Shown here piece after piece: positions 256 to 58,349 of a stretch of DNA of 64,000 nt. The DNA comes from a virus. Lineage: Duplodnaviria > Caudoviricetes. A program made the position numbers and the translations under genes. Position 1 is the first letter of the stretch. Every line of letters starts with the position of its first letter. The stretch lies in the IMG/VR virus record IMGVR_UViG_3300032038_000036, positions 36,727-100,726 of that record. One strand, given 5' to 3'. The notes under the pieces are model-generated. The model was given only the letters and a program-made list of their open reading frames with translations. It had not been told where the DNA came from and did not search any database.

Positions 256-846
256 ATGAAAAAACTTTACATTTTTTTAATTGTCTTAATGATGATGTTT
301 TCATTAAGTAGTTGTGAAACATATACTTATGCAACAACACAAGATGATATATATGTTGAAACTGAAGTAGATGTAGTTCGTTCAAACGTATCATTTGATG
401 TTATAATACAATATGGTACTCCTTATTATAGAGATGATGTATTGTTATATTATCTTTATAGAGATATTTATTACTATCCATTCTATTATAACAATTATTG
501 GTATGTAAGAGCATATCGAAGACCATTTACTCATTTTAATACAAGGCCTTATTTTAGACCACATAGATATGATTATAGATTCAGCCCAGGACATTATAGA
601 GGATTTGATAGACCAAATAGACCTATACCTCATTATCGTCATAATCCAAATATGCGTCGTCCTGATTATCCTCCAAGACAACCTCGTCCTGATGTAGGTA
701 ATCGTAGACCTAATCAACCAAGAATTAATGGAAATCGTCCACAAAGACCACCACAAATACGTCCTAATACAAGAACAAATCAGCCAAGAATTGATAGAAA
801 TCAAAATAATCGTAGTAGAAGCGGAAATTTTGGTGGAAGACGATAA
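256..846 (+). CDS. predicted lipoprotein with Tyr-rich middle and Arg/Pro/Asn-rich disordered tail
   Basis: MKK + hydrophobic stretch + lipobox LSSC. Confidence 0.65.
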   Translation: MKKLYIFLIVLMMMFSLSSCETYTYATTQDDIYVETEVDVVRSNVSFDVIIQYGTPYYRDDVLLYYLYRDIYYYPFYYNNYWYVRAYRRPFTHFNTRPYFRPHRYDYRFSPGHYRGFDRPNRPIPHYRHNPNMRRPDYPPRQPRPDVGNRRPNQPRINGNRPQRPPQIRPNTRTNQPRIDRNQNNRSRSGNFGGRR

Positions 847-947
847 AAAATTTTTATTATTTATTGAATATAATTTAGTTGTGAACTATTTTATTATTCG
901 TTTAACAAATTAATTTTTTTATTAACTTAAATATAACATAACGTAAA

Positions 948-1142
948 ATGAAAAAGACAATTTTTGCTTTAATTTTTGCAATGATGTTAGGTTTCTCAGT
1001 TTCATCTTGTAATGGATGTGGAGCTGGAACAGCAACAGATGCAGATAGCACAAAAGTTGATACTGTACTTGTAGATAGCACAGCAGTAGACTCAGTTGTT
1101 GCAGACACAATTGCAGTAGATACTACAGTAGTTGCTGAGTAA
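948..1142 (+). CDS. small Bacteroidetes-type lipoprotein
   Basis: signal peptide ending VSSC; repeated D-S/T-x-x-V motifs. Confidence 0.65.
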   Translation: MKKTIFALIFAMMLGFSVSSCNGCGAGTATDADSTKVDTVLVDSTAVDSVVADTIAVDTTVVAE

Positions 1143-1204
1143 ATTTGAAAACTCAAATGTAGTATAGGCAGGTAGAGATACCTGCATTTTTTATCTTAAT
1201 AAAA

Positions 1205-1243
1205 TTTGAATATTATTTATTTTTTACTATATTATATTTGTAA
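1205..1243 (+). promoter_or_regulatory. putative phage promoter (TTTGAA-N15-17-CTAT..TA..TTTG)
   Basis: matches Bacteroidetes TTTG / TAnnTTTG; same motif recurs upstream of several operons. Confidence 0.55.
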
Positions 1244-1261
1244 TCAATAAATAATTTAAAT

Positions 1262-1456
1262 ATGGACAAACAAGATTGGAAACATTTCAAAAAATCATTC
1301 AAAGAGGATTGGTTTGGTTGGTTGCTCCAATTTTTTATGATTGCAATGCTTTTTGGTTTGCTTGGATATTTAGTTTATTCAAGATTTACAAATCCACAAC
1401 CTGTTAATATAAATGAAGAAGATGTTGAATTAATAATGTCAAGTACTGTTTTTTAA
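1262..1456 (+). CDS. small membrane protein
   Basis: 64 aa with one hydrophobic segment. Confidence 0.6.
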   Translation: MDKQDWKHFKKSFKEDWFGWLLQFFMIAMLFGLLGYLVYSRFTNPQPVNINEEDVELIMSSTVF

Positions 1457-1457
1457 T

Positions 1458-1829
1458 ATGAAGAAGATTCCATACAATTGTTATATTGACCGCAAAGGTT
1501 ATGTAATGCCAAAGAGCGCAGTAATCAAACTTACTCCAGATCTTATTGAATGGCTTAGTACTGATGATGCTGTTCGTTTTCTTTTTACAGATAAACCAAA
1601 TTCTTTAAAGTTAAATAAAGAGTGGCTTACTGTAGGAATTAGTCATTCTTGGGTTGGAAATATTTATGCATATGCTGCTGATGAATCAAAAGAAGTAATT
1701 GATAAATATTTTATTGATAATCCTTATGTTAAAATTTTTGATGAAAATGACGAGGCATTTATAAAATATATGAAGTGGGTTGCAAAACTTGGTCCTTGGT
1801 TTACAAAACAGAGATTCAAGAAAGATTAA
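1458..1829 (+). CDS. hypothetical protein
   Basis: 123 aa ORF abutting previous gene. Confidence 0.65.
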   Translation: MKKIPYNCYIDRKGYVMPKSAVIKLTPDLIEWLSTDDAVRFLFTDKPNSLKLNKEWLTVGISHSWVGNIYAYAADESKEVIDKYFIDNPYVKIFDENDEAFIKYMKWVAKLGPWFTKQRFKKD

Positions 1830-1911
1830 TAAATGTTAAATTTAAATAGTAAATTTGTTTTATTATATAAGATAGGTTTACTATTTTTATTTAAATATAT
1901 ACTTACATAAT

Positions 1912-2979
1912 ATGCCTAAAAGTAAATTAACATTAATTGTTGATGGAAATTGGCTTTTGATGAGTAGACTTTCGGTATTAAATAATCGTTATGTTGATGA
2001 ATTTGAATTAAATCAAGAACTTAAGTTAATGCTTATCAAATCTATAAATGTCGTTCTTCGTACATTTACAGATATTGACAATGTGATTTTTGTTGCTGAT
2101 GGCGGTTCTTGGAGAAATTCAATTGAAATACCAGATTATTTATATAAAGAGAAAACGTCAGAGGACCAATCAGTTGAATATAAAGGAAACAGAGTAAAAT
2201 CATCAGACATCAACTGGGATTTATTATTTGAATCTTATGGAGATTTTATAACAACATTACAAAGTTGCGGTATTACAGCTTGTCAAGAACAAGGAGTTGA
2301 AGGAGATGATTGGTGTTATCATTGGTCAACATATCTTAATTCACAAGGAACAAATTGTATTATTTGGACAAAGGATAATGACTTAAAACAATTAGTAAAC
2401 ATTGACTCAAATAAATGCTTTACTGTTTGGTGGAATAGTTCAAATGGTTTATTTGTTAAAGATTTTCCTGAAGAAGAATTTAATTTCTTATTTAATACAG
2501 AGTTCAATATCAATGAAGATATTTTGAATAATCTTATTCATAAGTCAGGAGAAGTACATAAAATCAATCCATCAGAAATTATAGTTGATAAGATTATAAG
2601 AGGAGATGCTGGAGATAATATTTATCCAATAATATTAAGAAAGGCAAAGACTAATTCAACACGATCATTTAAGGTTGCAACAAAAGATATTGATTATTCA
2701 TTAGATTATAAAGATGATAATGCTGTAAATAATTATATTCACAATCTTGTAAATTCAAAAAATTATGCAGGAAGAATAAATAAAACTGAGCAAGAGATTA
2801 TCAGTCATTTTAAGTATAATAGAAAACTTGTTGCTCTTGAAAAAGAATCATATCCACAAGAAATATTGGATATATTTGAAAAATATCATGATTATAACAT
2901 AAGTAAAGATACATCAATTGCTGAAAGTCAATTACAAGCCAAAAGTAATAAATTGAATGGTATTTTAGATATAATTTAA
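1912..2979 (+). CDS. rnh: 5'-3' exonuclease / T4 RNase H-like flap nuclease
   Basis: LIVDGN, YKGNR, EGDD, KDNDLKQL, GDAGDNI motifs of the FEN/PolA 5'-nuclease family. Confidence 0.85.
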   Translation: MPKSKLTLIVDGNWLLMSRLSVLNNRYVDEFELNQELKLMLIKSINVVLRTFTDIDNVIFVADGGSWRNSIEIPDYLYKEKTSEDQSVEYKGNRVKSSDINWDLLFESYGDFITTLQSCGITACQEQGVEGDDWCYHWSTYLNSQGTNCIIWTKDNDLKQLVNIDSNKCFTVWWNSSNGLFVKDFPEEEFNFLFNTEFNINEDILNNLIHKSGEVHKINPSEIIVDKIIRGDAGDNIYPIILRKAKTNSTRSFKVATKDIDYSLDYKDDNAVNNYIHNLVNSKNYAGRINKTEQEIISHFKYNRKLVALEKESYPQEILDIFEKYHDYNISKDTSIAESQLQAKSNKLNGILDII

Positions 2980-3046
2980 TTGTTAATGAATATTAAAATA
3001 TTAACACAATAATAGCTAGGAAATAACATCCTAGCTATTGTTATTT

Positions 3047-3119
3047 ATTCCTCTAGCACGGTAAAATAATAAAATAATAAAATTATATTATTCAGAAAAA
3101 TAGACCGTGATATAGGAAT
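3047..3119. repeat. ~70-bp inverted-repeat element (copy 1; copy 2 at 59084-59153)
   Basis: ATTCCTCTAGCACGGT...ACCGTGATATAGGAAT between convergent genes. Confidence 0.5.
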
Positions 3120-3122
3120 GAT

Positions 3123-3368
3123 TTACTGCTTCATTCCGTAGATTACATTAATAAATTCATCCCCAATTGTTTCTTGAATGTATTCCTTAGCAGCTGCAAG
3201 GTTCAAGCTTTCATTTACATTAGGAGACCAAATATACAATATATCATCTTCTTCAGAATATTCACTATTAATATGATAGTTTTCTTTTATGTATTGTTGT
3301 GCCTTTGATATATTGTCATTTAATCCTAAAAATGTCTCTACAAGAATTTTTTCATTTTCCTTACTCAT
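3123..3368 (-). CDS. hypothetical protein
   Basis: likely start MSKENEK overlapping stop of upstream gene. Confidence 0.65.
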   Translation of the reverse strand: MSKENEKILVETFLGLNDNISKAQQYIKENYHINSEYSEEDDILYIWSPNVNESLNLAAAKEYIQETIGDEFINVIYGMKQ

Positions 3369-3975
3369 CAATTGTATCTTCAATATTTTTGTGCAATTTT
3401 TCTTTAAGAATATCTGTTAATTCTAAAGCTAATGCTTCAACATTTACATATTTTTTGATGATATAAGCAGAAATGTCTTCAAATTTTACATCAAGAAATT
3501 CAACTAATGTATTGATTTGAGCTTCAGGAAAATCATCCCATTTTACATCTACTTCAATTTTAGGTACTGATGTTAATTTATCAAATACCTTTTTTATTAT
3601 TTGCTCATTATTGATAGGTGCTGCTGTTGCTTGTGGAACTAATGGGTCAACTCCAAATTCTTTTTCATATTCTGCAATTGCTGCAGCATCATCATTTGTT
3701 GGTTCTGCTTTCCCAACAACCTTTCCTGACTCATCATATATATCATCAGAAACTTGTATATAATCTCGTGAAAAGATTTCCATTGGAAGCTGACCTTTAT
3801 CTGTTATGATAATCATATTATCACCATCTTGTACAGTTTGATTGATACGAATTTTCTGACCTGTTTGTCTATGCATCCATATACCTTCAATACCCATACC
3901 ACTACCATCAGCACCTGGTTCAAATTCACGTCCTTGCACCTTACCTTCAAAAGGTGTTGGTTGATATTCTGCCAT
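3361..3975 (-). CDS. hypothetical protein
   Basis: 204 aa ORF. Confidence 0.7.
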   Translation of the reverse strand: MAEYQPTPFEGKVQGREFEPGADGSGMGIEGIWMHRQTGQKIRINQTVQDGDNMIIITDKGQLPMEIFSRDYIQVSDDIYDESGKVVGKAEPTNDDAAAIAEYEKEFGVDPLVPQATAAPINNEQIIKKVFDKLTSVPKIEVDVKWDDFPEAQINTLVEFLDVKFEDISAYIIKKYVNVEALALELTDILKEKLHKNIEDTIDE

Positions 3976-4052
3976 CTTTATATTAATCTTATATGTTTAT
4001 AATTAAAAATAGATAATATTAAATTTTTAATTCAAACATTTGTTAAATTTTA

Positions 4053-4586
4053 TTAATTATTTTCTTCTAATAAATACTTTCTTTTTTCTTCATCACCAAA
4101 TATATATTCAAGAATAGTATTATGAATATCTATTTCATTCTCTAAAAAATATAAATAATTAATTGTAGTAATGAATGTATTAAAATAATTAATTTCAATT
4201 AAATCTGAATTAGATATTGCTTTGTTATTTTTTGTATCAATCCAAACAACTAATATATCATACTTTTTAAATATGATTTCAGGAATTGAATTAAATTCTT
4301 CTACTGTTAAATAACAGACGTCATTATTATAAAAATCATCAATCGTTATTCCATTTGAAATATACTTATTTGTTTTTATATATAACAATGCATTGTTTTT
4401 ATATGATAGATTAACAGTATTTACATCAAGATAATAAATGTAATTTTCATTTACTTCATCTTTATATTCTGTATCTGTTGTAAATCGTGGAATAATTGAT
4501 AATTCATCATTTATTCTAACAATATCTTTTGCAACATTTAATGCTTTTTCTTTATCTAAGCATACTATAAAAGTTTTTAAATTCAT
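4053..4586 (-). CDS. degenerate guanylate-kinase-like protein
   Basis: IIPRFTT..E..Y.Y resembles the GK nucleotide-binding segment; no intact P-loop. Confidence 0.35.
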   Translation of the reverse strand: MNLKTFIVCLDKEKALNVAKDIVRINDELSIIPRFTTDTEYKDEVNENYIYYLDVNTVNLSYKNNALLYIKTNKYISNGITIDDFYNNDVCYLTVEEFNSIPEIIFKKYDILVVWIDTKNNKAISNSDLIEINYFNTFITTINYLYFLENEIDIHNTILEYIFGDEEKRKYLLEENN

Positions 4587-4608
4587 TCGTTATTACTTAA
4601 TTATTTTG

Positions 4609-7600
4609 TTAATTAATTGAGAGAGTTATAAAGTATTTATTAGTATCACGAGATTCATCAAATGCAGTATAATACATTACTGTCAAATTAAGTCCCGGAT
4701 ATACAATGTTATTATTTATAACATGTGAACCTTGTATTAAATCATTCTTAAATAATATATGGGTTCTATTTAAGTTTTGTGTTCCATATTTTGTATTTAT
4801 ATAATACATCTTTTCATTAAATTGTGGATTTTCAATTACTCGTCCATTTTCATCATATAAGATATTTTTAATATTATAAATATTTAAAGATATCATATCT
4901 TCAGCATTAGGCAATGTAATATTAAAATATGTTTTGAATAAATTATATAAAGATAACTTATAACTTGAAATACCTGTTATTTCATTAAGTTCTATTGAAT
5001 TTACTAACATATTTTCTGCTGTAAATAATGAAGATGTATAAGCAGCACTACACATTCCTATTAATGGAATTGTCATAATATTATATGTAACTCCATTAAC
5101 AATTGGTTGGAATAAAATACTTTGTTTTGATATTATTTGCTTTGATGCATTTAATATAATATTATTAAAGTCAATTGATACAGTATCGTGTGTACTAAAT
5201 TTTGTTTTTTCAAGTTCATCAACAAGTGTTTCAGTACCCACATTGATATTTGTATTTGTTGAACCAATATGTAATGTTCCTTTATTTTGTTCATCATATG
5301 ATGTACCTAAATATGCGTTATAAATTTTACCATTTTGGTCAAGTGATACAATATTTAATCTGTTAAGTACATTAAAGTTTCTATTAAATACTTCTCCAAA
5401 ATCTAATGATGGAACATTTTCATTAAATACAAATTCATTATAATTATATTTTGATTTTTCAACTTGTTCAATTTGTATTTGATGTTCAACTATATTTTCT
5501 GTTTCTGCATATTGTTTTTCAATTGTCTGTATTAATGATTCAACATTTTGTATTTGTGCACCATCAACATATACTTTAGATTTTCTTTCACTTCCAATTA
5601 ATGTACCAATGTTTCTTAACTCTTTAATAATTTCTGTTTTAGATGTTGAAACAGTAGACTGTGATTTGTAATATTTAGGATAAAGTGAATTTGTTGTTCT
5701 AATGTTTCCTAATGATGGTAAATACTTATTTGTTTGTGAATGTGTTATATGATTATTGTTTAATGTAACTGTATCGTTATATTGTATAATACCATTAAGA
5801 TCATTTAAGTATTGTCCTATATTATCATTAACTGCTGAATATTCTTCAGATTGTTTATTCTTAATGATCATCCAATTGTTTTCATTAATAGCTAATCTTT
5901 CTTGACTTAATTGTGTAATGATTGCTTTCAATAAAATTAAATCTTGGTCATTTAAGTTTTCAACTGTTTCATCATTTGTTGCATTAATAAGATTTACTGT
6001 TGAACCTAATGCTAATGCATAATCTGAATCTATTTGATTAATACATTGGAACTCATATTCATCATCAGATACTTCAGCAACACGCCACATTGTTAATATA
6101 TAAGATCCCTTATAATATGTCTTATATAATGTATCTGATAAACATTCAAGATCTGATATACTTAATATAATACTATTTCTAAAATATTCAAAGTTGTTTT
6201 TATTTATAGTAGGAATATAAGCACAACATTGAATTTTTATTGTGTATGTATTTTCAAATAAAGCAGGATGAACATTAAAGAATTTCTGTTCAAATTTTGC
6301 ACCTTTTATTTTTTCATAATTTGATACTGCATTAAGCAAATAATAACTACTTTTTTCATCACAAGCTTTATCTCTATTATATATAAGAATAATATTAGGA
6401 TTGCCTGCATCTTTACCAACAGCTCTTATAGTAGTATTTTTATCATTAATACTCCAGTTATTTTCAGCATTAATATAAGGCATTGTAAAGATATCTTTGA
6501 TTATAACAGAATTAATAAGTTTTTCATTATTTCTATTATAATTAATTTCAAAATTGTATGTTTTTACTTTACCTATATCATTATCATAATCAAATATAAG
6601 ATTAGTATTTTCTTCCCAGAAATGATTGCTTGTATTTGTTGTTTTTAAGTTAACATAATTTATATATGTATTAGTTGAGTAATAAATATACATACTATCG
6701 TTACTATTACATATATAATGGAATTGATAATTAATTGGAATATATAAGAATGTTTCTTTTGAAAAATCTGGTTTATCATCATTAGATTTTACACAAGCCT
6801 TTTCATACAATTTTGATAATATTCGTTTGATAAATCCTGCACGTGTTTCAAGATAATACTTTTCATTATAATAACTAAAAATATTATAATAAAGATTATT
6901 ACAGTCTTCATTTAACTGATATATATCTTCATTTAAATTAATTCCATATTCTGCCTTAAAATTAGCTACAATATTTTCAAATTCAGTTGAATTTATTGAA
7001 AAGAACTCATTATTGTTTGAATTATATACAAGTTCAATTGTTCCTTTATCATATAATGAATTTGGTAAATAATTCAATATTAATGATATTGGAGAATTTG
7101 ATGAAAAATGATATGAATCAACATCGTTATAACTTAATAATTCGTTTATATCATTATATTCTGCTCTTATTAATGAAAATGGAATTTCATTTGTACTTTT
7201 GTAATTACTAAACTTAAATGAAGATAAGAAACTATTATAATACTTGTTATCTAATTCTTTAAGTGTTTTAGCATTAAACATATAAAATTTCATTTCATAT
7301 TCATCAGATAATGCACTATTTGAATATCCATTACTTTTATATGTTTTATTTGTTATCATCATCAAATGAAACCAGTCCCCGTTATCATCTGAATTATCAT
7401 AATAAATCTTTGCACCAAATTTTAATAAATTAGAATTAATATCAAACTTATAGTAATATAAAATAGAATTTAAATCATCGTCATCATTAGTACCCATCAT
7501 TTTACCAACGAGCATAAATGTAAGATCTTTACCATCGTTTATACAAATACTATTCTTTCCATATTTTTCAATGCCACCTAAAATAATATCAAAACTTAAA

Positions 7601-14800: not shown

Positions 14801-14939
14801 AATTATCTGGTGTATATAAGAGTTACTTCGATTACTTTTTTAATTAAGTGGTTTTAATGCAATTTTTTCAGAATTGATTCCTCGGTTCGAATCCGAGAGA
14901 AAGTTTCATAACAATACTTTTATAGCTGTTCCGATAATT
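14801..14939 (+). ncRNA. Y-RNA-like module RNA 2 containing a lone T arm
   Basis: AATTATC-T-GG-TGTA-TATAAGAGT-TACTTC...ACTTTTATA-GCTGTT-CC-GATAATT. Confidence 0.75.
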
Positions 14940-14944
14940 AATTT

Positions 14945-16317: not shown

Positions 16318-16394
16318 AATTCCTTGTTGTAGAGTAGAGTTACTTCAAAGAATGTGGTTTTAATAAGATACTTTATTCGCTTATTACAGGAATT
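16318..16394 (+). ncRNA. Y-RNA-like module RNA 4 (minimal)
   Basis: AATTCCT-T-GT-TGTA-GAGTAGAGT-TACTTC...ACTTTATTC-GCTTATT-AC-AGGAATT. Confidence 0.75.
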
Positions 16395-18231: not shown

Positions 18232-18363
18232 CGCGGAGTGGTGAAATTTAAAATTAGACTTTATTCGCTGTTGCTTCGAATGAATGCTGTAGATTAGAGT
18301 TACTTCGGTATACACGCTTTTCAGGAAAAAAAGATTATGTTGGTTCGAGTCCAACCTCCGCGA
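18232..18363 (+). tRNA. tRNA-like RNA (Leu-type D arm, ambiguous anticodon) with module inserted in D loop
   Basis: acceptor CGCGGAG/CTCCGCG; module 18258-18306. Confidence 0.65.
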
Positions 18364-18788: not shown

Positions 18789-18935
18789 GCGGATGTAGTA
18801 TAAAGGAAAGTACACCGTTAAAAAGATTTTTATGACCTTTTAACGCTGTTACATCGTAAGATTGTTGTAGTTGAGAGTTACTTCAAATTATTGCATTCCA
18901 AGCCGGGGATGTTGGTTCGAGTCCAACCGTCCGCT
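18789..18935 (+). tRNA. tRNA-Gly(UCC) with 75-nt module insert in anticodon stem
   Basis: removing 18818-18892 restores CCGGC-ATTCCAA-GCCGG. Confidence 0.75.
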
Positions 18936-29302: not shown

Positions 29303-29442
29303 GGGTAGGTAACATAAAAAACGATTTAAAACTTCGGTCGTTGTTCTCCGTAAGGTAGTGTAGATTGTGAGTTACTTCAAAGGATTAATGTATTTGTCTG
29401 TTAAACAAAAGAGTGTTGGTTCGAGTCCAACCCTACCCGCCA
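29303..29442 (+). tRNA. tRNA-Asn(GUU) with module in D loop
   Basis: GGGTAGG/CCTACCC-G-CCA; TTTGT-CTGTTAA-ACAAA; module 29331-29378. Confidence 0.8.
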
Positions 29443-29614: not shown

Positions 29615-29744
29615 GGTGACGTAGCTAAACGGTAGATAAACGACTTTATTCGCTGTTACTCAGAAATGATGTTGTAGAACAGAGTTACTTCAAAGCATTA
29701 ATCAGTCAAATTAAGGAAAGTTGGTTCGACTCCAACCGTCACCG
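29615..29744 (+). tRNA. tRNA-Asp(GUC)-like with module in D loop
   Basis: TTAAT-CAGTCAA-ATTAA (A33); module 29643-29691. Confidence 0.7.
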
Positions 29745-29781: not shown

Positions 29782-29929
29782 TGGGTAGAAGTATAAGGGT
29801 AAAACAAATTTCAAAATGACTTTATTCGCTGTTACTCAGAAATGATGTTGTAGAACAGAGTTACTTCAAATTTAAATGTACATTTCGTCGTAATCGAAAG
29901 AGATGGTGGTTCGAGTCCACCCTACCCAA
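29782..29929 (+). tRNA. tRNA-like RNA (GUA or CGU anticodon) with module in D loop
   Basis: TTTCG-TCGTAAT-CGAAA; module 29819-29867. Confidence 0.65.
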
Positions 29930-29998
29930 CAATTCTCGTCGAGCAGCTGGTTTTCAGGGGCTTGTCACCAGCTGGGAACAAAAAAGACCGCCCACCAT

Positions 29999-30085
29999 GT
30001 GTCTATGGCCGAGTGGTTGAAGGCAGCAGACTGTTAATCTGCCGTGGAGAAATCCCCATCGTAGGTTCGATCCCTACTGGGCACG
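29999..30085 (+). tRNA. tRNA-Asn(GUU) with class II variable arm
   Basis: GCAGA-CTGTTAA-TCTGC; long V arm. Confidence 0.82.
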
Positions 30086-30092
30086 CCCTAAG

Positions 30093-30201
30093 TACTCTAT
30101 GGTGAAATTGGAAACTGACTTGAAGGCCAAAAGTTAGTAATACACGGAGGAACTGTAAACCTCTGCTTTAATGCATCTCGGTTCGAATCCGAGTAGAGTA
30201 C
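30093..30201 (+). tRNA. tRNA-Tyr(GUA)-like with extra hairpin in D loop and enlarged anticodon loop
   Basis: ACTGACTT..AAGTTAGT insert; GGAGG-AACTGTAAA-CCTCT. Confidence 0.6.
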
Positions 30202-30223
30202 TATGTTATATTCTTGCAAGAAT

Positions 30224-30295
30224 CGGGATTTGGTGTAATGGTAAGCACGGGGTTGTATTTGCGCAACCAGGTGAAGTTCGAATCTTCGGTCCCAA
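30224..30295 (+). ncRNA. tRNA-like RNA with 8-nt anticodon loop
   Basis: GGTTG-TATTTGCG-CAACC; D and T arms present. Confidence 0.55.
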
Positions 30296-30562
30296 CAAAT
30301 AACTATCGGTGTCCGAGTGAAACGGATATGTTTCTATATTGATGTGTCGGCGGACTGTGTTAAGACTTAGAATTAGGGCGCTACTTATCGACGGATAAGC
30401 AATCTTGAAAGGGGTACTTAACAGCATCAAGAAATAAACAAGGTTAAAAGTCAAGCAAGCCCGGGATAAAGTGAGGAACTAAGTTACTTGTTTTGGAAAC
30501 GATCACGGCAGGGATATAGCACCTGCAAATAATGGGTTCGACTCCCATGGCCGCTACAAGAT

Positions 30563-30700
30563 TGCCATTTAGCTCAGTCGGGTAGAGCACGTAACAATAC
30601 TTTTGTCGCTGGTTACGTAATATCATTAATTACTGTTGAAGATGAGAGTTACTTCAGCCTTTTAAGCTCGGGGTCGTGGGTTCGAGCCCCACAGTGGCAA
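30563..30700 (+). tRNA. tRNA-Lys(UUU) with 64-nt module insert in anticodon stem
   Basis: removing 30592-30655 restores CGAGC-CTTTTAA-GCTCG. Confidence 0.78.
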
Positions 30701-30827
30701 CTAATAAAAATATATCAGCATCTAAAACAGGGCCGAAGGAGAAACAATAGGCGCGCATTGTTCAATGGTTTGGGTCTGTCCGATGAGAAAAATCTTTGAG
30801 GCTAAGCCATGATGGATATATTTTTTC

Positions 30828-30865
30828 TTTGAAATTTTATTTATATAAAACTATATTATTATTGT
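30828..30865 (+). promoter_or_regulatory. putative promoter of last tRNA block
   Basis: TTTGAAAT...ACTATATTATTATTG. Confidence 0.45.
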
Positions 30866-30882
30866 TAATAAACAAACAGTTT

Positions 30883-30955
30883 GGGATGTAGGTCAAACGG
30901 TTAAGATGTCTGCCTGTCACGCAGCACGGAGCGGGTTCAACTCCCGTACGTCCCG
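30883..30955 (+). tRNA. tRNA-Asp(GUC)
   Basis: loop CTGTCAC. Confidence 0.85.
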
Positions 30956-31152
30956 CATAATATTGTTAAAAAGATGACATGCTCCTAAGGTAGGAATAAA
31001 TCTTTTTATGCAAGAGTCAATAACGATGGTTCTGATAGAATAAAAATTAAATTCAGAGAAATTAGATATTCAGCGCATGCGGGCTATCGTGGGAAGTACA
31101 ACCACAATTAGGGCGAGGCATAGTTGTTATTGCACAATATTATTTCTTCGTT

Positions 31153-31226
31153 GGGCCCGTAGCTCAGTTGGTTAGAGCAGCAGACTCATAATCTGAAGGT
31201 CGTGGGTTCAATCCCCTCCGGGCCCA
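31153..31226 (+). tRNA. tRNA-CAU (Ile2-like body)
   Basis: GGGCCCG/CGGGCCC; loop CTCATAA. Confidence 0.88.
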
Positions 31227-57176: not shown

Positions 57177-58349
57177 ATGAATATAAGTCCAAGAAATAAT
57201 TTTGATTTACTTCAAAATTTTATTCCATATAGAATTGTAAAATATAAGGATAATAAATATTATATAATGATTAACATATTTGTTCATGAAACAGATATAT
57301 TTGGTTATAGTATTTATTTCTTTATTGATGATAAATTTGCTCCTGATTATAGAGGTAATGAAATATATGATTTCTTATCAAATATTGATTTGGAAAATGA
57401 TAACATTAGAGATATATTAATAAATGGTACAGAATCATTGTTAATAGGAACAGATTATTTTTTATCTGGAAATACTGATGATCCAGGAATTATGTCATCA
57501 AATATCAATGATTATTTATGTATATCTGGAATTAAGATAAAAGATATTGATAATATTAGTTATTTTATATATAAGAATAAAGCAATAGAGAATAATCAAT
57601 TTAATGATGATGAATTAAATAAATTAAATTCAACATTTATGAAGATTATTCAAACTTATTCAGATATGTATGGTAATGCAATTGATTCATTAGATTTTGT
57701 TTATCAAAATGTAATTGATTATTATGCTAATGGACAATATGATGATGCAATTATATTAATGAACTCTATATTTAATACACAATTAACTACATCAGTTACA
57801 GCTAATTGTGGATGTAATTCTCAAAGCGACTGTACAAGTGTAGCTTCAGGAACAAGTACAATTAACACAGGTACAGATTTAGTATCATTAGATACAGCAA
57901 CTTGCGCTGATAAATATAAGGCAGCAATGTATCAATGGCTTATACAAATGTTATCAGATATTAACTTTTATTGTAATTGGATGTTTACAACAGTTGAAGA
58001 TGAAGATAATATAACAATTCCTGATGAAGAATTAATTGATAACTTAATAGAATTATTAACAGAGTTCTTAAATGCTAATTATGATTTGTCAAATTTAAAA
58101 GGTTGTAAGAGTGCATGCAATTGTGGTCATTCAAAGAAATATTTCAGTAATAATACAACTGGAGACTGTGCAGATTTAATGAATAATGGAATAGGAGTTA
58201 ATGTTGATAACTGTTCATATTATACAATTATTGAAAATTATATTAAAGCACTTAATTGGGTAAAAAATAATCAAATTGACGAAAATAAGAACAAGATATA
58301 TGTATATGGAAAACAGTTTGCAGAAATATTTCCATTATTAAGTTTTTAG
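57177..58349 (+). CDS. hypothetical protein with Cys clusters
   Basis: 390 aa; CGC and CxxxCNCGH; ends in TAG. Confidence 0.7.
   Translation: MNISPRNNFDLLQNFIPYRIVKYKDNKYYIMINIFVHETDIFGYSIYFFIDDKFAPDYRGNEIYDFLSNIDLENDNIRDILINGTESLLIGTDYFLSGNTDDPGIMSSNINDYLCISGIKIKDIDNISYFIYKNKAIENNQFNDDELNKLNSTFMKIIQTYSDMYGNAIDSLDFVYQNVIDYYANGQYDDAIILMNSIFNTQLTTSVTANCGCNSQSDCTSVASGTSTINTGTDLVSLDTATCADKYKAAMYQWLIQMLSDINFYCNWMFTTVEDEDNITIPDEELIDNLIELLTEFLNANYDLSNLKGCKSACNCGHSKKYFSNNTTGDCADLMNNGIGVNVDNCSYYTIIENYIKALNWVKNNQIDENKNKIYVYGKQFAEIFPLLSF

What the first reader, a model, noticed from the sequence alone, without database searches (positions are those of the whole stretch)
30563..30700. tRNA-Lys(UUU) with an independent module insertion in the anticodon stem
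Seen: removing 30592-30655 restores CGAGC-CUUUUAA-GCUCG; the insertion point is one base away from that in the Gly copy and the module sequence differs. Established: tRNA-Lys(UUU) is the target of PrrC-type anticodon nucleases. Inference: bait or sensor presenting a Lys anticodon loop tethered to the module-binding protein; three ordinary Lys(UUU) genes make it dispensable for decoding.
Basis: partly seen in the sequence, partly recalled or inferred. Interest (0 to 1): 0.75.

Follow-up and report, generated by a model that had tools for sequence, protein, structure and literature searches.

The report
tRNA-Lys-shaped Y RNA with Ro60 arm
A giant rumen phage carries a lysine-tRNA gene with an extra 64-base arm in its anticodon stem; the arm is the docking element that phage and bacterial Y RNAs carry next to Ro60 protein genes, so the gene most likely makes a tRNA-shaped Ro60 partner RNA, not a tRNA awaiting splicing.

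Summary
Window 30563-30700 is a complete tRNA-Lys(UUU) cloverleaf once 30592-30655 is removed, and the insert lies between nt 28 and 29.

The insert is one of six copies of a structured module in this tRNA array. Its parts are a 9-bp helix, an internal loop, 2 bp, a bulged U, a variable hairpin and an invariant unpaired UACUUC. Covariation supports this structure.

Three results decide the reading:
- In 50 of 64 Ro60 (TROVE+vWA) loci from other phage contigs, 2-5 copies of the module lie on the same strand just downstream of Ro60. Several are the same Lys(UUU) gene with the same 28/29 junction.
- Beside Ro60 genes on contigs binned into bacterial MAGs, the same module occurs in ordinary Y-RNA topology, and Rfam's YrlA model hits several of these RNAs below its threshold.
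- Large relatives of this phage encode Ro60 and RtcB but no tRNA-splicing endonuclease.

Contigs from four RNA libraries show no spliced joint, and contigs from two of them span the whole module.

The best reading is therefore a tRNA-topology Y RNA, a new variant of YrlA-type Y RNAs, not an intron.

The scan reached the same reading for neighbouring genes of this genome and for a tRNA-Ile in another genome (e1-5766347).

The parts
30563..30700 (+). Whole gene: tRNA-Lys(UUU) body carrying a Y-RNA-type arm (138 nt)
30563..30591 (+). tRNA nt 1-28: acceptor 5' strand, D arm, and C27 G28 of the anticodon stem
30592..30598 (+). Unpaired linker UAACAAU between G28 and the module
30599..30607 (+). Module helix H1, first strand ACUUUUGUC; pairs with 30641-30649
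30608..30614 (+). Internal loop GCUGGUU (pattern G-N3-4-UU)
30615..30636 (+). 2-bp helix AC/GU around the variable terminal hairpin GUAAU-AUCAUUA-AUUAC (30617-30633), with bulged U at 30634
   Evidence: (covariation)
30635..30641 (+). GUUGAAG: one-base variant of the published Rsr/Ro60 motif GNCGAAN0-1G, at the equivalent place in the stem
   Evidence: PMC4201824; exact matches GGCGAAAG in L102 and GUCGAAUG in L113 at the same module position
30641..30649 (+). Module helix H1, second strand GAUGAGAGU
30650..30655 (+). Invariant unpaired UACUUC, directly joined to A29
30656..30700 (+). tRNA nt 29-73: rest of the anticodon stem, loop CUUUUAA, variable loop, T arm, acceptor 3' strand, discriminator A
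18255..18309 (+). Same module in the D loop of tRNA-like gene 18232-18363
18834..18887 (+). Same module in the anticodon stem (29/30) of tRNA-Gly(UCC) 18789-18935
29328..29381 (+). Same module in the D loop of tRNA-Asn(GUU)-like gene 29303-29439
29640..29694 (+). Same module in the D loop of gene 29615-29744 (GUC loop)
29816..29870 (+). Same module in the D loop of gene 29782-29929
16318..16394 (+). Free-standing mini Y RNA: same module with the RNA ends in the terminal helix
14801..14940 (+). Free-standing Y-RNA stem enclosing a whole tRNA-like body (14834-14905)

Best explanation
The gene makes one stable RNA of about 138 nt: a full L-shaped tRNA-Lys(UUU) body from whose anticodon stem, between nt 28 and 29, a 57-nt arm projects. 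The arm is the Ro60-docking stem of a Y RNA, with a bulged-U helix, the motif GUUGAAG, a 9-bp helix and a single-stranded UACUUC. It is a circular permutation of YrlA-type Y RNAs. In YrlA the RNA ends lie in the Ro60 stem and the acceptor stem is closed; here the ends lie in the acceptor stem and the Ro60 stem is closed by a hairpin. I infer the following steps. The RNA is cut out of the array transcript like its neighbour tRNAs. It keeps the arm. It binds the phage's Ro60 ring. It cannot decode, because the arm and a roughly 55-kDa ring sit on the anticodon stem. The complex would then display a lysine anticodon arm. The most likely use is in the conflict over tRNA-Lys: as bait or competitor for host nucleases that cut tRNA-Lys(UUU) (PrrC, RloC, PARIS AriB), or as a platform that brings Ro60 together with its exonuclease partner or the phage's RtcB ligase to such tRNAs. 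Shown here: the anatomy, the covariation, the genomic link to Ro60, conservation of the gene, and unspliced copies in RNA-library contigs. Inferred: Ro60 binding, no splicing, no decoding, and the bait or repair role.
For: 1. Structure. On 30 modules, 90.5% of cells pair, against 31-48% when partners are slid. There are 84 double-sided changes against 6-27, and 0 of 500 shuffles reach the observed score.
2. Link to Ro60. Phage Ro60 has TROVE plus vWA domains. In 50 of 64 viral Ro60 loci the box lies within 1.5 kb downstream on the same strand, averaging 2.4 copies, against 0.06 upstream and 0.19 antisense.
3. The same gene sits next to Ro60. L053, L058 and L078 have GAGCACG|UA...GAGUUACUUC|AGCCUUUUAAGCUC, the same 28/29 junction as here.
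4. Contigs binned into bacterial MAGs (Cytophagales, Moraxella, Neisseriaceae, Chloroflexota and others) carry the same module beside Ro60 with the ends in the stem. It is followed by an anticodon-like hairpin, a T arm, a closed acceptor stem and a D arm. Rfam YrlA hits these at 33-40 bits, E from 1e-3 to 1e-5.
5. Three of the four module-bearing relatives longer than 190 kb encode Ro60. G001 and G002 encode RtcB and no tRNA-splicing endonuclease.
6. No decoding constraint. Near-identical bodies (0.94-0.97 identity) carry different arms (0.60-0.74 identity): Lys UUU, Thr UGU, His GUG, Ser GCU, Glu UUC and 9-nt loops.
7. RNA libraries. Contigs X17 rec 21 (30543-30663) and rec 22 (30552-30674) and X1 rec 1 (29818-31189) span the whole unspliced module. 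X16 rec 15 (30645-30918) runs through its 3' junction. No joint 30591>30656 appears in four RNA runs.
Against: No Ro60 gene lies in the 100.7 kb held for this phage, which is 35% complete. G001, 83% complete, also lacks one. Rfam YrlA scores only 22.7 bits here against a threshold of 69. The Ro60 motif is one base off the published consensus (U for C). The single-sequence minimum-energy fold prefers another pairing, 30589-30595 with 30611-30617, at -38.1 kcal/mol against -26.5 for the comparative structure, and its z-score is only -1.2. The RNA evidence comes from assembled contigs, which can derive from DNA in the library and drop rare forms, so a spliced form is not excluded. Many Ro60 loci are related phages, so 50 of 64 is not 50 independent events. 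Some of the MAG contigs could be phage DNA binned into a MAG. Nothing here tests protein binding or any nuclease.
Confidence: 0.65

Rival explanations
1. The module is an intron. It is cut out, perhaps yielding a small hairpin Y RNA as a by-product, the halves are joined by the phage's RtcB ligase, and the product is a fourth working tRNA-Lys(UUU).
For: Removing exactly 64 nt gives a flawless cloverleaf. Nt 27-28 covary with 42-43 across the insert. Relatives encode RtcB, the ligase of protein-dependent tRNA splicing. From general knowledge, archaeal tRNA introns can carry small functional RNAs such as the C/D box RNA in pre-tRNA-Trp.
Against: No tRNA-splicing endonuclease domain was found in G000, G001 or G002. 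There is no bulge-helix-bulge geometry at the junctions. At 64 nt it is far too small for a group I intron, and no Rfam intron family hits it. No spliced joint appears in four RNA libraries, while unspliced contigs are present. Bacterial homologues carry the same module at the same junction with the RNA ends inside the module, so there it cannot be an intron. Anticodon arms change on constant Lys-type bodies, which would give tRNAs with mismatched identity.
Confidence: 0.15
2. The box is a DNA or RNA signal of the tRNA array, such as a phage promoter or an endonuclease processing site. Its presence inside tRNA genes would split or inactivate them, leaving pseudogenes or two-piece tRNAs.
For: The 3' half of the module also stands in spacers right after tRNA 3' ends or after terminator-like hairpins. 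The box always lies on the transcribed strand.
Against: The spacer copies turn out to be the first strand of free-standing Y RNAs, whose second strand follows 25-110 nt later. Helices covary, as expected of RNA structure and not of a promoter. The box is absent from the rest of the genomes apart from stray matches, two of which I checked and found inside coding regions. The interrupted genes are conserved with compensatory changes and are not decaying.
Confidence: 0.05
3. The module is a selfish mobile insertion that happens to land in tRNA genes and has no function for the phage.
For: There are several copies in one array, at different sites (D loop, 28/29, 29/30). Two copies share an identical 53-nt stretch.
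Against: The Lys graft is kept at the same junction across phage groups whose Ro60 proteins are only about 60% identical. The module co-diverges with its host gene. It is linked tightly to Ro60. No transposase or target-site duplication was seen at the Lys copy.
Confidence: 0.05

Closest known systems
YrlA-type bacterial and phage Y RNAs bound by Ro60/Rsr (Rfam RF02553; Chen et al. 2014, PMC4201824; Wang et al. 2018, bioRxiv 10.1101/312249)
   Same: Both join a Ro60-stem module to a tRNA-like domain with D and T arms. Both have a motif like GNCGAAN0-1G on the stem strand that carries the bulge. Both are genomically linked to Ro60, in orthologues and in relatives of this phage. The module meets the tRNA-like domain between the D arm and the anticodon side, as in the permuted bacterial forms found here.
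   Different: Published YrlA has its 5' and 3' ends in the Ro60 stem, a closed acceptor stem, no free CCA end and no anticodon loop. This RNA has open acceptor ends, an intact Lys(UUU) anticodon stem-loop, and a Ro60 stem closed by a hairpin as a side arm. It lies in a tRNA array, not beside Ro60. The Rfam model does not reach its threshold (22.7 against 69 bits).
Phage-encoded Ro60 with Y-RNA-like RNAs (mycobacteriophages, CcrColossus, Bacillus phage G in PMC4201824; Thermus phage phiLo Yrl1/Yrl2, PMC12135203)
   Same: Both are phage-borne Ro60 with several small RNAs next to the gene, showing a bulged stem and a CGAA-like motif. The phiLo study proposed that the RNP hijacks host PNPase.
   Different: Those RNAs are stem-bulge-stem Y RNAs, and none is described as a complete tRNA with an anticodon arm. 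Here there are also many copies with different anticodon arms.
Phage tRNA variants that escape or neutralise anticodon-arm nucleases (T5 tRNA-Lys/Thr/Asn against PARIS AriB, PMC12409363; T4 repair of PrrC-cut tRNA-Lys, general knowledge)
   Same: Both are phage-encoded extra copies of tRNA-Lys(UUU). Arms seen on grafted genes include Lys UUU, Thr UGU and Asn GUU, the AriB target set. The grafts sit in the anticodon stem opposite the AriB cut (40|41) or in the D loop, the two regions AriB is reported to contact.
   Different: T5 tRNAs are ordinary decoding tRNAs with point substitutions. This RNA carries a 64-nt arm and probably does not decode. No nuclease was tested, and the host's defence systems are unknown.
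Archaeal non-canonical tRNA introns (bulge-helix-bulge) and bacterial group I introns in tRNA genes
   Same: Both are intervening sequences at non-canonical positions (D loop, anticodon stem) whose removal restores a cloverleaf.
   Different: There is no BHB geometry and no endonuclease gene, the insert is too small for group I, no spliced RNA was seen, and the insert is itself a conserved Ro60-linked module.

Membership tests
YrlA-type Y RNA (Rfam RF02553) | Scores at or above the Rfam gathering threshold (69 bits) | tested here: not met
   The best overlap is 30516-30615 at 22.7 bits, E 0.77. Canonical-topology homologues beside Ro60 on MAG contigs reach 33-40 bits.
YrlA-type Y RNA (Rfam RF02553) | Ro60/Rsr-binding motif GNCGAAN0-1G on the stem (PMC4201824) | tested here: inconclusive
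   GUUGAAG at 30635-30641 has U in place of C. Exact matches (GGCGAAAG in L102, GUCGAAUG in L113) occupy the same position of the same module next to Ro60. The Rfam alignment of L108 placed the motif elsewhere.
YrlA-type Y RNA (Rfam RF02553) | Encoded within about 4 kb of a Ro60 (TROVE) gene on the same strand | tested here: not met
   There is no TROVE gene in the 100.7-kb record, which is 35% complete. The feature is met by orthologues in ~100-kb phages (50 of 64 loci). In relative G002, Ro60 is about 31 kb from the array.
YrlA-type Y RNA (Rfam RF02553) | tRNA-like domain with D and T arms able to form the L shape | tested here: met
   The body is a complete cloverleaf with G18 G19 and the T loop UUCGAGC. 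ARAGORN calls it tRNA-Lys once the module is removed.
YrlA-type Y RNA (Rfam RF02553) | RNA ends in the Ro60 stem, closed acceptor-like stem, no anticodon loop (10.1101/312249) | tested here: not met
   The topology is the reverse: open acceptor stem, Ro60 stem closed by hairpin 30617-30633, and anticodon loop CUUUUAA present.
YrlA-type Y RNA (Rfam RF02553) | Physically bound by Ro60 | not testable with these tools
   This needs EMSA or RIP with the phage Ro60 (for example the protein of L015:1369-2823).
Decoding tRNA-Lys(UUU) | Continuous cloverleaf recognised by tRNA finders | tested here: not met
   ARAGORN and the Rfam tRNA model do not call 30563-30700 as it stands.
Decoding tRNA-Lys(UUU) | Anticodon and body co-conserved, as a decoder requires | tested here: not met
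   Orthologous bodies carry Lys, Thr, His, Ser and Glu arms and 9-nt loops. Within the five Lak-like copies the Lys arm is conserved at 0.96 identity.
Decoding tRNA-Lys(UUU) | Aminoacylation and use on the ribosome | not testable with these tools
Protein-spliced tRNA intron (archaeal/eukaryal type) | Bulge-helix-bulge motif at the two splice sites | tested here: not met
   In the covariation-supported structure, the 5' junction abuts a 7-nt linker and the 3' junction a 6-nt single strand. There are no 3-nt bulges flanking a 4-bp helix.
Protein-spliced tRNA intron (archaeal/eukaryal type) | A tRNA-splicing endonuclease is available | tested here: not met
   PF01974 is absent from G000, G001 and G002, while the archaeal controls ring. 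All three records are incomplete.
Protein-spliced tRNA intron (archaeal/eukaryal type) | A spliced RNA exists | tested here: inconclusive
   No joint 30591>30656 appears in four RNA libraries, and unspliced contigs are present. Contigs cannot show absence.
Group I intron in a tRNA gene | Catalytic core (P3-P9) of roughly 200 nt or more | tested here: not met
   The insert is 64 nt, and no Rfam intron family is hit even at E up to 10.

The most novel reading that the evidence does not exclude
Ro60-docked tRNA look-alikes with exchangeable anticodon arms are a phage counter-defence. Each displays the anticodon arm of a tRNA that host nucleases attack (Lys UUU, Thr UGU, Asn GUU, the GUN family, Glu UUC). 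Held on the Ro60 ring, it would soak up or mark the nuclease, or hand cut tRNAs to RtcB or an exonuclease. The arms would diversify in an arms race, which would explain why the arm is the fastest-changing part of otherwise near-identical genes.
Probability: 0.2. Interest if true: 0.85.

Novelty: new variant of a known kind. Interest (0 to 1): 0.62.

Why it matters
Y RNAs and Ro60 are conserved from bacteria to humans, yet the purpose of the tRNA-like part of bacterial Y RNAs has been open since 2014. These phage RNAs keep everything published YrlA lacks: free acceptor ends and a true anticodon stem-loop. Close relatives exchange that anticodon arm while the rest stays fixed. This points to the anticodon arm as the working end and gives a direct test: which tRNA-binding proteins or anticodon nucleases does the Ro60-RNA particle meet?

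There is also a practical point for annotation. tRNA genes that look interrupted, in huge-phage arrays and beside Ro60 in ~100-kb gut and rumen phages, should not be scored as intron-containing tRNAs or pseudogenes. tRNA counts for such phages mix decoders with Y RNAs.

Tried and rejected
- Intron readings were checked first. A group I intron is ruled out by size and by no Rfam hit. A BHB intron is ruled out by geometry and by no endonuclease gene.
- The promoter or processing-signal reading came from the spacer copies. I dropped it when those copies folded as free-standing Y RNAs and the box proved confined to the arrays and to Ro60 neighbourhoods.
- A resemblance of UGUUGUAGA to the Cas12a repeat hairpin was considered and dropped, because the complementary UCUAC strand is missing.
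- Box matches in G002 beside the TROVE gene (57567, minus strand) and 1.4 kb from RtcB (159827) lie inside coding regions and are chance. L122 and L123 were fetched and not used.
- Rfam YrlA does not reach threshold on the window or on the ~100-kb phage loci.
- Single-sequence folding does not reproduce the comparative structure and is not better than shuffles, z = -1.2.
- RNA-library depth along the gene was not used to rank expression, because all the runs are contigs. Parts without cover were ignored.
- Literature searches for interrupted tRNA genes in phages and for Ro60 or Y RNA in Lak or crAss-like phages found no description of this form.
- Complex prediction, structure prediction and protein homology searches were not used. 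None of them can test RNA-protein binding.

Full report
**Setting.** The window is part of an IMG/VR virus record of 100.7 kb that CheckV estimates to be 35% complete. It has about 25% G+C and encodes a T4-type terminase and portal. Earlier notes of this scan call it Lak-like. From 13.9 to 33.2 kb it carries an array in which ARAGORN finds 61 tRNA genes. A scan for T-loop motifs found 21 further T arms that belong to no called tRNA. Several of these are tRNA genes with an insert of about 55-75 nt.

At 30563-30700 a perfect acceptor stem, D arm and T arm enclose an anticodon stem split after C27 G28 (30590-30591) by 64 nt (30592-30655). Then come A29 G30 C31, the loop CUUUUAA and GCUCG. With the insert cut out, ARAGORN calls a 74-nt tRNA-Lys(UUU); with it, nothing is called. 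Three ordinary Lys(UUU) genes lie elsewhere in the array. The Gly(UCC) gene at 18789-18935 has its insert one base further along, at 29/30, and the two inserts are 56% identical.

**The insert is a structured module.** Six genes of the array carry it, either in the D loop or in the anticodon stem. A covariance model built from 30 copies finds exactly these six in the window, at 48-62 bits. Its architecture runs in this order:
- a helix of about 9 bp (H1; here 30599-30607 with 30641-30649);
- an internal loop (GCUGGUU opposite UGAA);
- two base pairs;
- a bulged U (30634);
- a terminal hairpin of variable length and sequence;
- after H1, an invariant unpaired UACUUC (30650-30655).

On the alignment of 30 modules, 90.5% of cells form standard pairs, against 31-48% when the partners are slid by 1-3 columns. 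There are 84 cells with changes on both sides against 6-27, and no shuffle out of 500 reaches the observed covariation.

**What the module is.** My first readings were an intron or a promoter-like signal, because the 3' half of the module also stands in spacers just after tRNA 3' ends. A note from an earlier agent on the neighbouring Gly gene (e1-5951227) proposed a Ro60 Y-RNA stem, and I tested that idea independently.

- *Ro60 in relatives.* One relative (G002, 193 kb) encodes a 484-aa TROVE+vWA protein, that is Ro60. Homologues at 80% identity lie on two other module-bearing contigs, of 254 kb and 435 kb.
- *Ro60 loci in other phages.* In 64 viral Ro60 loci with enough downstream DNA, 50 have the box on the same strand within 1.5 kb downstream. 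The mean is 2.4 copies, against 0.06 upstream and 0.19 on the other strand. Most of these contigs are phages of about 100 kb whose Ro60 is only 52-65% identical to that of the Lak-like group. The loci without a nearby box are mostly the Lak-like contigs, where the modules I found lie in tRNA arrays instead.
- *The spacer copies are Y RNAs.* The 'half modules' are the first strand of free-standing Y RNAs. The second strand follows 25-110 nt later, and the RNA ends form what is the terminal hairpin in the grafted form. Examples are L058 4501-4576, three in tandem after Ro60 in L024, and window 16318-16394 and 14801-14940.
- *Bacterial MAG contigs.* Ro60 homologues occur on 39 contigs binned into bacterial MAGs, among them Cytophagales, Moraxella, Neisseriaceae, Chloroflexota and Paceibacterota. 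About 15 of these contigs have (G/C/A)(A/G)GUUACUUC preceded by GGUGGUGUAGA-like sequence on the Ro60 strand beside the gene. Some of these contigs may themselves be phage DNA. Rfam's YrlA model hits the RNA that begins at the box at 33-40 bits, below the threshold of 69, with E from 1e-3 to 1e-5.
- *The published motif.* In L102 and L113 the position held here by GUUGAAG (30635-30641) reads GGCGAAAG and GUCGAAUG. Both are exact matches to the published Rsr-binding motif GNCGAAN0-1G.

**The Lys gene is an old unit, and a permuted YrlA.** The same gene occurs in four Lak-like relatives: same D arm, same GAGCACG|UA and CUUC|AGCCUUUUAAGCUC junctions. It also lies directly downstream of Ro60 in phages of about 100 kb (L053, L058, L078, and with other stems L032, L045, L051, L062).

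Across 35 genes with the graft in the anticodon stem:
- there are 13 different acceptor stems and 9 different T stems, and nearly all positions pair;
- in nearly all of them the anticodon stem is rebuilt from two bases before the module and three after it;
- nt 27-28 covary with 42-43: CG/CG, GU/AC, GC/GC, CU/AG, UG/CA, CA/UG.

The Lys module is closer to the Lys modules of the ~100-kb phages (0.60) than to the other modules of its own genome (0.48-0.56), so body and module travel together.

In the bacterial forms (L108, L096, L103) the order is: stem strand, UACUUC, anticodon-like hairpin (CUGUUAA, CUUUUAA, AUGUUAA), T arm, closed acceptor stem, D arm, second stem strand. That is the same RNA as here, opened at a different point.

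Published YrlA is described as lacking a free CCA end and an anticodon loop. The phage form has both an open acceptor stem and a canonical anticodon loop. I found no paper that describes this form.

**Spliced or not.** Five points argue against splicing:
- homology with RNAs in which the module holds the RNA ends;
- no tRNA-splicing endonuclease domain in G000, G001 or G002, while the archaeal controls ring;
- no bulge-helix-bulge geometry at the junctions;
- anticodon arms that change on constant Lys-type bodies. In two groups of ~100-kb phages the bodies are 0.94-0.97 identical but the arms only 0.60-0.74, carrying Lys, Thr, His, Ser or Glu loops or 9-nt loops. Spliced, these would be tRNAs with mismatched identity;
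- the RNA libraries. Twenty public runs from 13 studies hold part of this stretch, six of them RNA. In four bovine-gut metatranscriptome runs from four studies, contigs span the whole unspliced module (X17 30543-30663 and 30552-30674; X1 29818-31189) or run through its 3' junction (X16 30645-30918), and no joint skips 30592-30655.

These are contigs. They may derive from DNA in the library and they drop rare forms, so this evidence is weak. RtcB is encoded by G001 and G002, which fits either RNA repair or ligation after splicing. I leave the intron reading at about 15%.

**Mechanism.** Ro60 binding and the lack of decoding are inferred, not shown. A 57-nt arm carrying a ring protein on the 5' strand of the anticodon stem is hard to reconcile with ribosomal decoding, and three ordinary Lys(UUU) genes cover that need.

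Relatives hold Ro60, RtcB and Y RNAs, the same set as the Salmonella rsr-yrlBA-rtcBA operon, which is regulated by damaged tRNAs (title and abstract of PMC7790460; the operon make-up is general knowledge). tRNA-Lys(UUU) is a known target of PrrC and of PARIS AriB. AriB also cuts Thr(UGU) and Asn(GUU), cleaves between 40 and 41, and contacts the D loop. Lys, Thr and Asn arms are among those seen on grafted genes, and the grafts sit opposite the AriB cut or in the D loop.

This overlap is suggestive but untested, and the counts are not independent. The structural reading, a Y RNA in tRNA topology, I rate at about 0.65.

**Caveats.**
- No Ro60 gene lies in the part of this phage that is held, and G001 (83% complete) also lacks one.
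- The Ro60 motif differs from the consensus by one base, and the Rfam alignment of L108 placed the motif elsewhere.
- The minimum-energy fold of the single sequence prefers pairing 30589-30595 with 30611-30617, at -38.1 against -26.5 kcal/mol. That pairing is kept, with one mismatch, in the Lak-like copies only. It may be an alternative state or chance.

**Verdict.** This is a new variant of a known kind, YrlA-type Y RNAs. The same reading was reached earlier in this scan for neighbouring genes of this genome and for a tRNA-Ile in another genome (e1-5766347). What this report adds:
- the Ro60-adjacent orthologues of the Lys gene;
- the permutation relationship to the bacterial forms;
- the variability of the anticodon arm;
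- the RNA-library check.

Noticed in passing
window 30210-30556: A very abundant RNA in two rumen metatranscriptome studies (X17 contig depth 315; X16 depth 250-670, against 7-45 for its neighbours). It holds a box-like AAGTTACTTG (30480-30489) and ends in a T arm plus an acceptor-like 3' end (30536-30556), with a possible 5' partner GGCGGAC at 30349. Its identity is unknown; it may be a large tRNA-like or Y-like RNA. Rfam matches only a tmRNA-like 3' end, at 12.9 bits.
   Followed up: partly
window 14801-14940: A free-standing Y-RNA stem whose interior holds a complete AT-rich tRNA-like body that ARAGORN calls tRNA-Glu (14834-14905). This is a third way of joining the module to a tRNA, at the acceptor end.
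   Followed up: partly
L022-L078 (phage contigs of about 100 kb), locus coordinates about 700-5200: A conserved RNA island. In the loci scanned with Rfam, tRNAs and a tmRNA lie upstream of Ro60 (L024, L032, L041, L059). Across most loci, 3-5 Y RNAs, free-standing and tRNA-grafted, lie downstream on the same strand.
   Followed up: partly
L096 4421-4700, L108 1650-1800, L103 2450-2750: Canonical-topology Y RNAs beside Ro60 on contigs binned into bacterial MAGs carry an anticodon-like hairpin right after UACUUC: CUUUUAA (Lys-like) in Cytophagales, and CUGUUAA and AUGUUAA (Asn-like) in the others. Published YrlA is described as lacking an anticodon loop.
   Followed up: partly
L032/L057/L023/L031 and L051/L041/L047/L044 (genes downstream of Ro60): Among near-identical tRNA-shaped Y RNAs, the anticodon arm is the most variable part (0.60-0.74 identity against 0.94-0.97 for the body). 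Whole arms are exchanged: Lys, Thr, His, Ser, Glu, or 9-nt loops.
   Followed up: yes
window 29640-29694 and 29816-29870: Two D-loop modules share an identical 53-nt stretch. An RNA-library contig (X1) collapses the 176 nt between them, which could be mistaken for a splice.
   Followed up: yes
window 30589-30595 with 30611-30617: An alternative 7-bp pairing ACGUAAC/GUUACGU would undo the top of the anticodon stem and the module's 2-bp helix. It dominates the single-sequence fold and is kept, with one mismatch, in the Lak-like Lys copies only.
   Followed up: partly
L015 254-1069 (G002 57183-57998): An ADP-ribosylglycohydrolase gene lies directly upstream of Ro60 in the Lak-like relative.
   Followed up: no
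window 30223-30296: ARAGORN reports a tRNA with a four-base anticodon (tttg).
   Followed up: no
window 29615-29744, 29782-29929, 18232-18363: The D-loop-grafted genes have anticodon loops with A or C at position 33 in place of the universal U (CAGUCAA, UCGUAAU, CAGGAAA). This is another sign that they do not decode.
   Followed up: no
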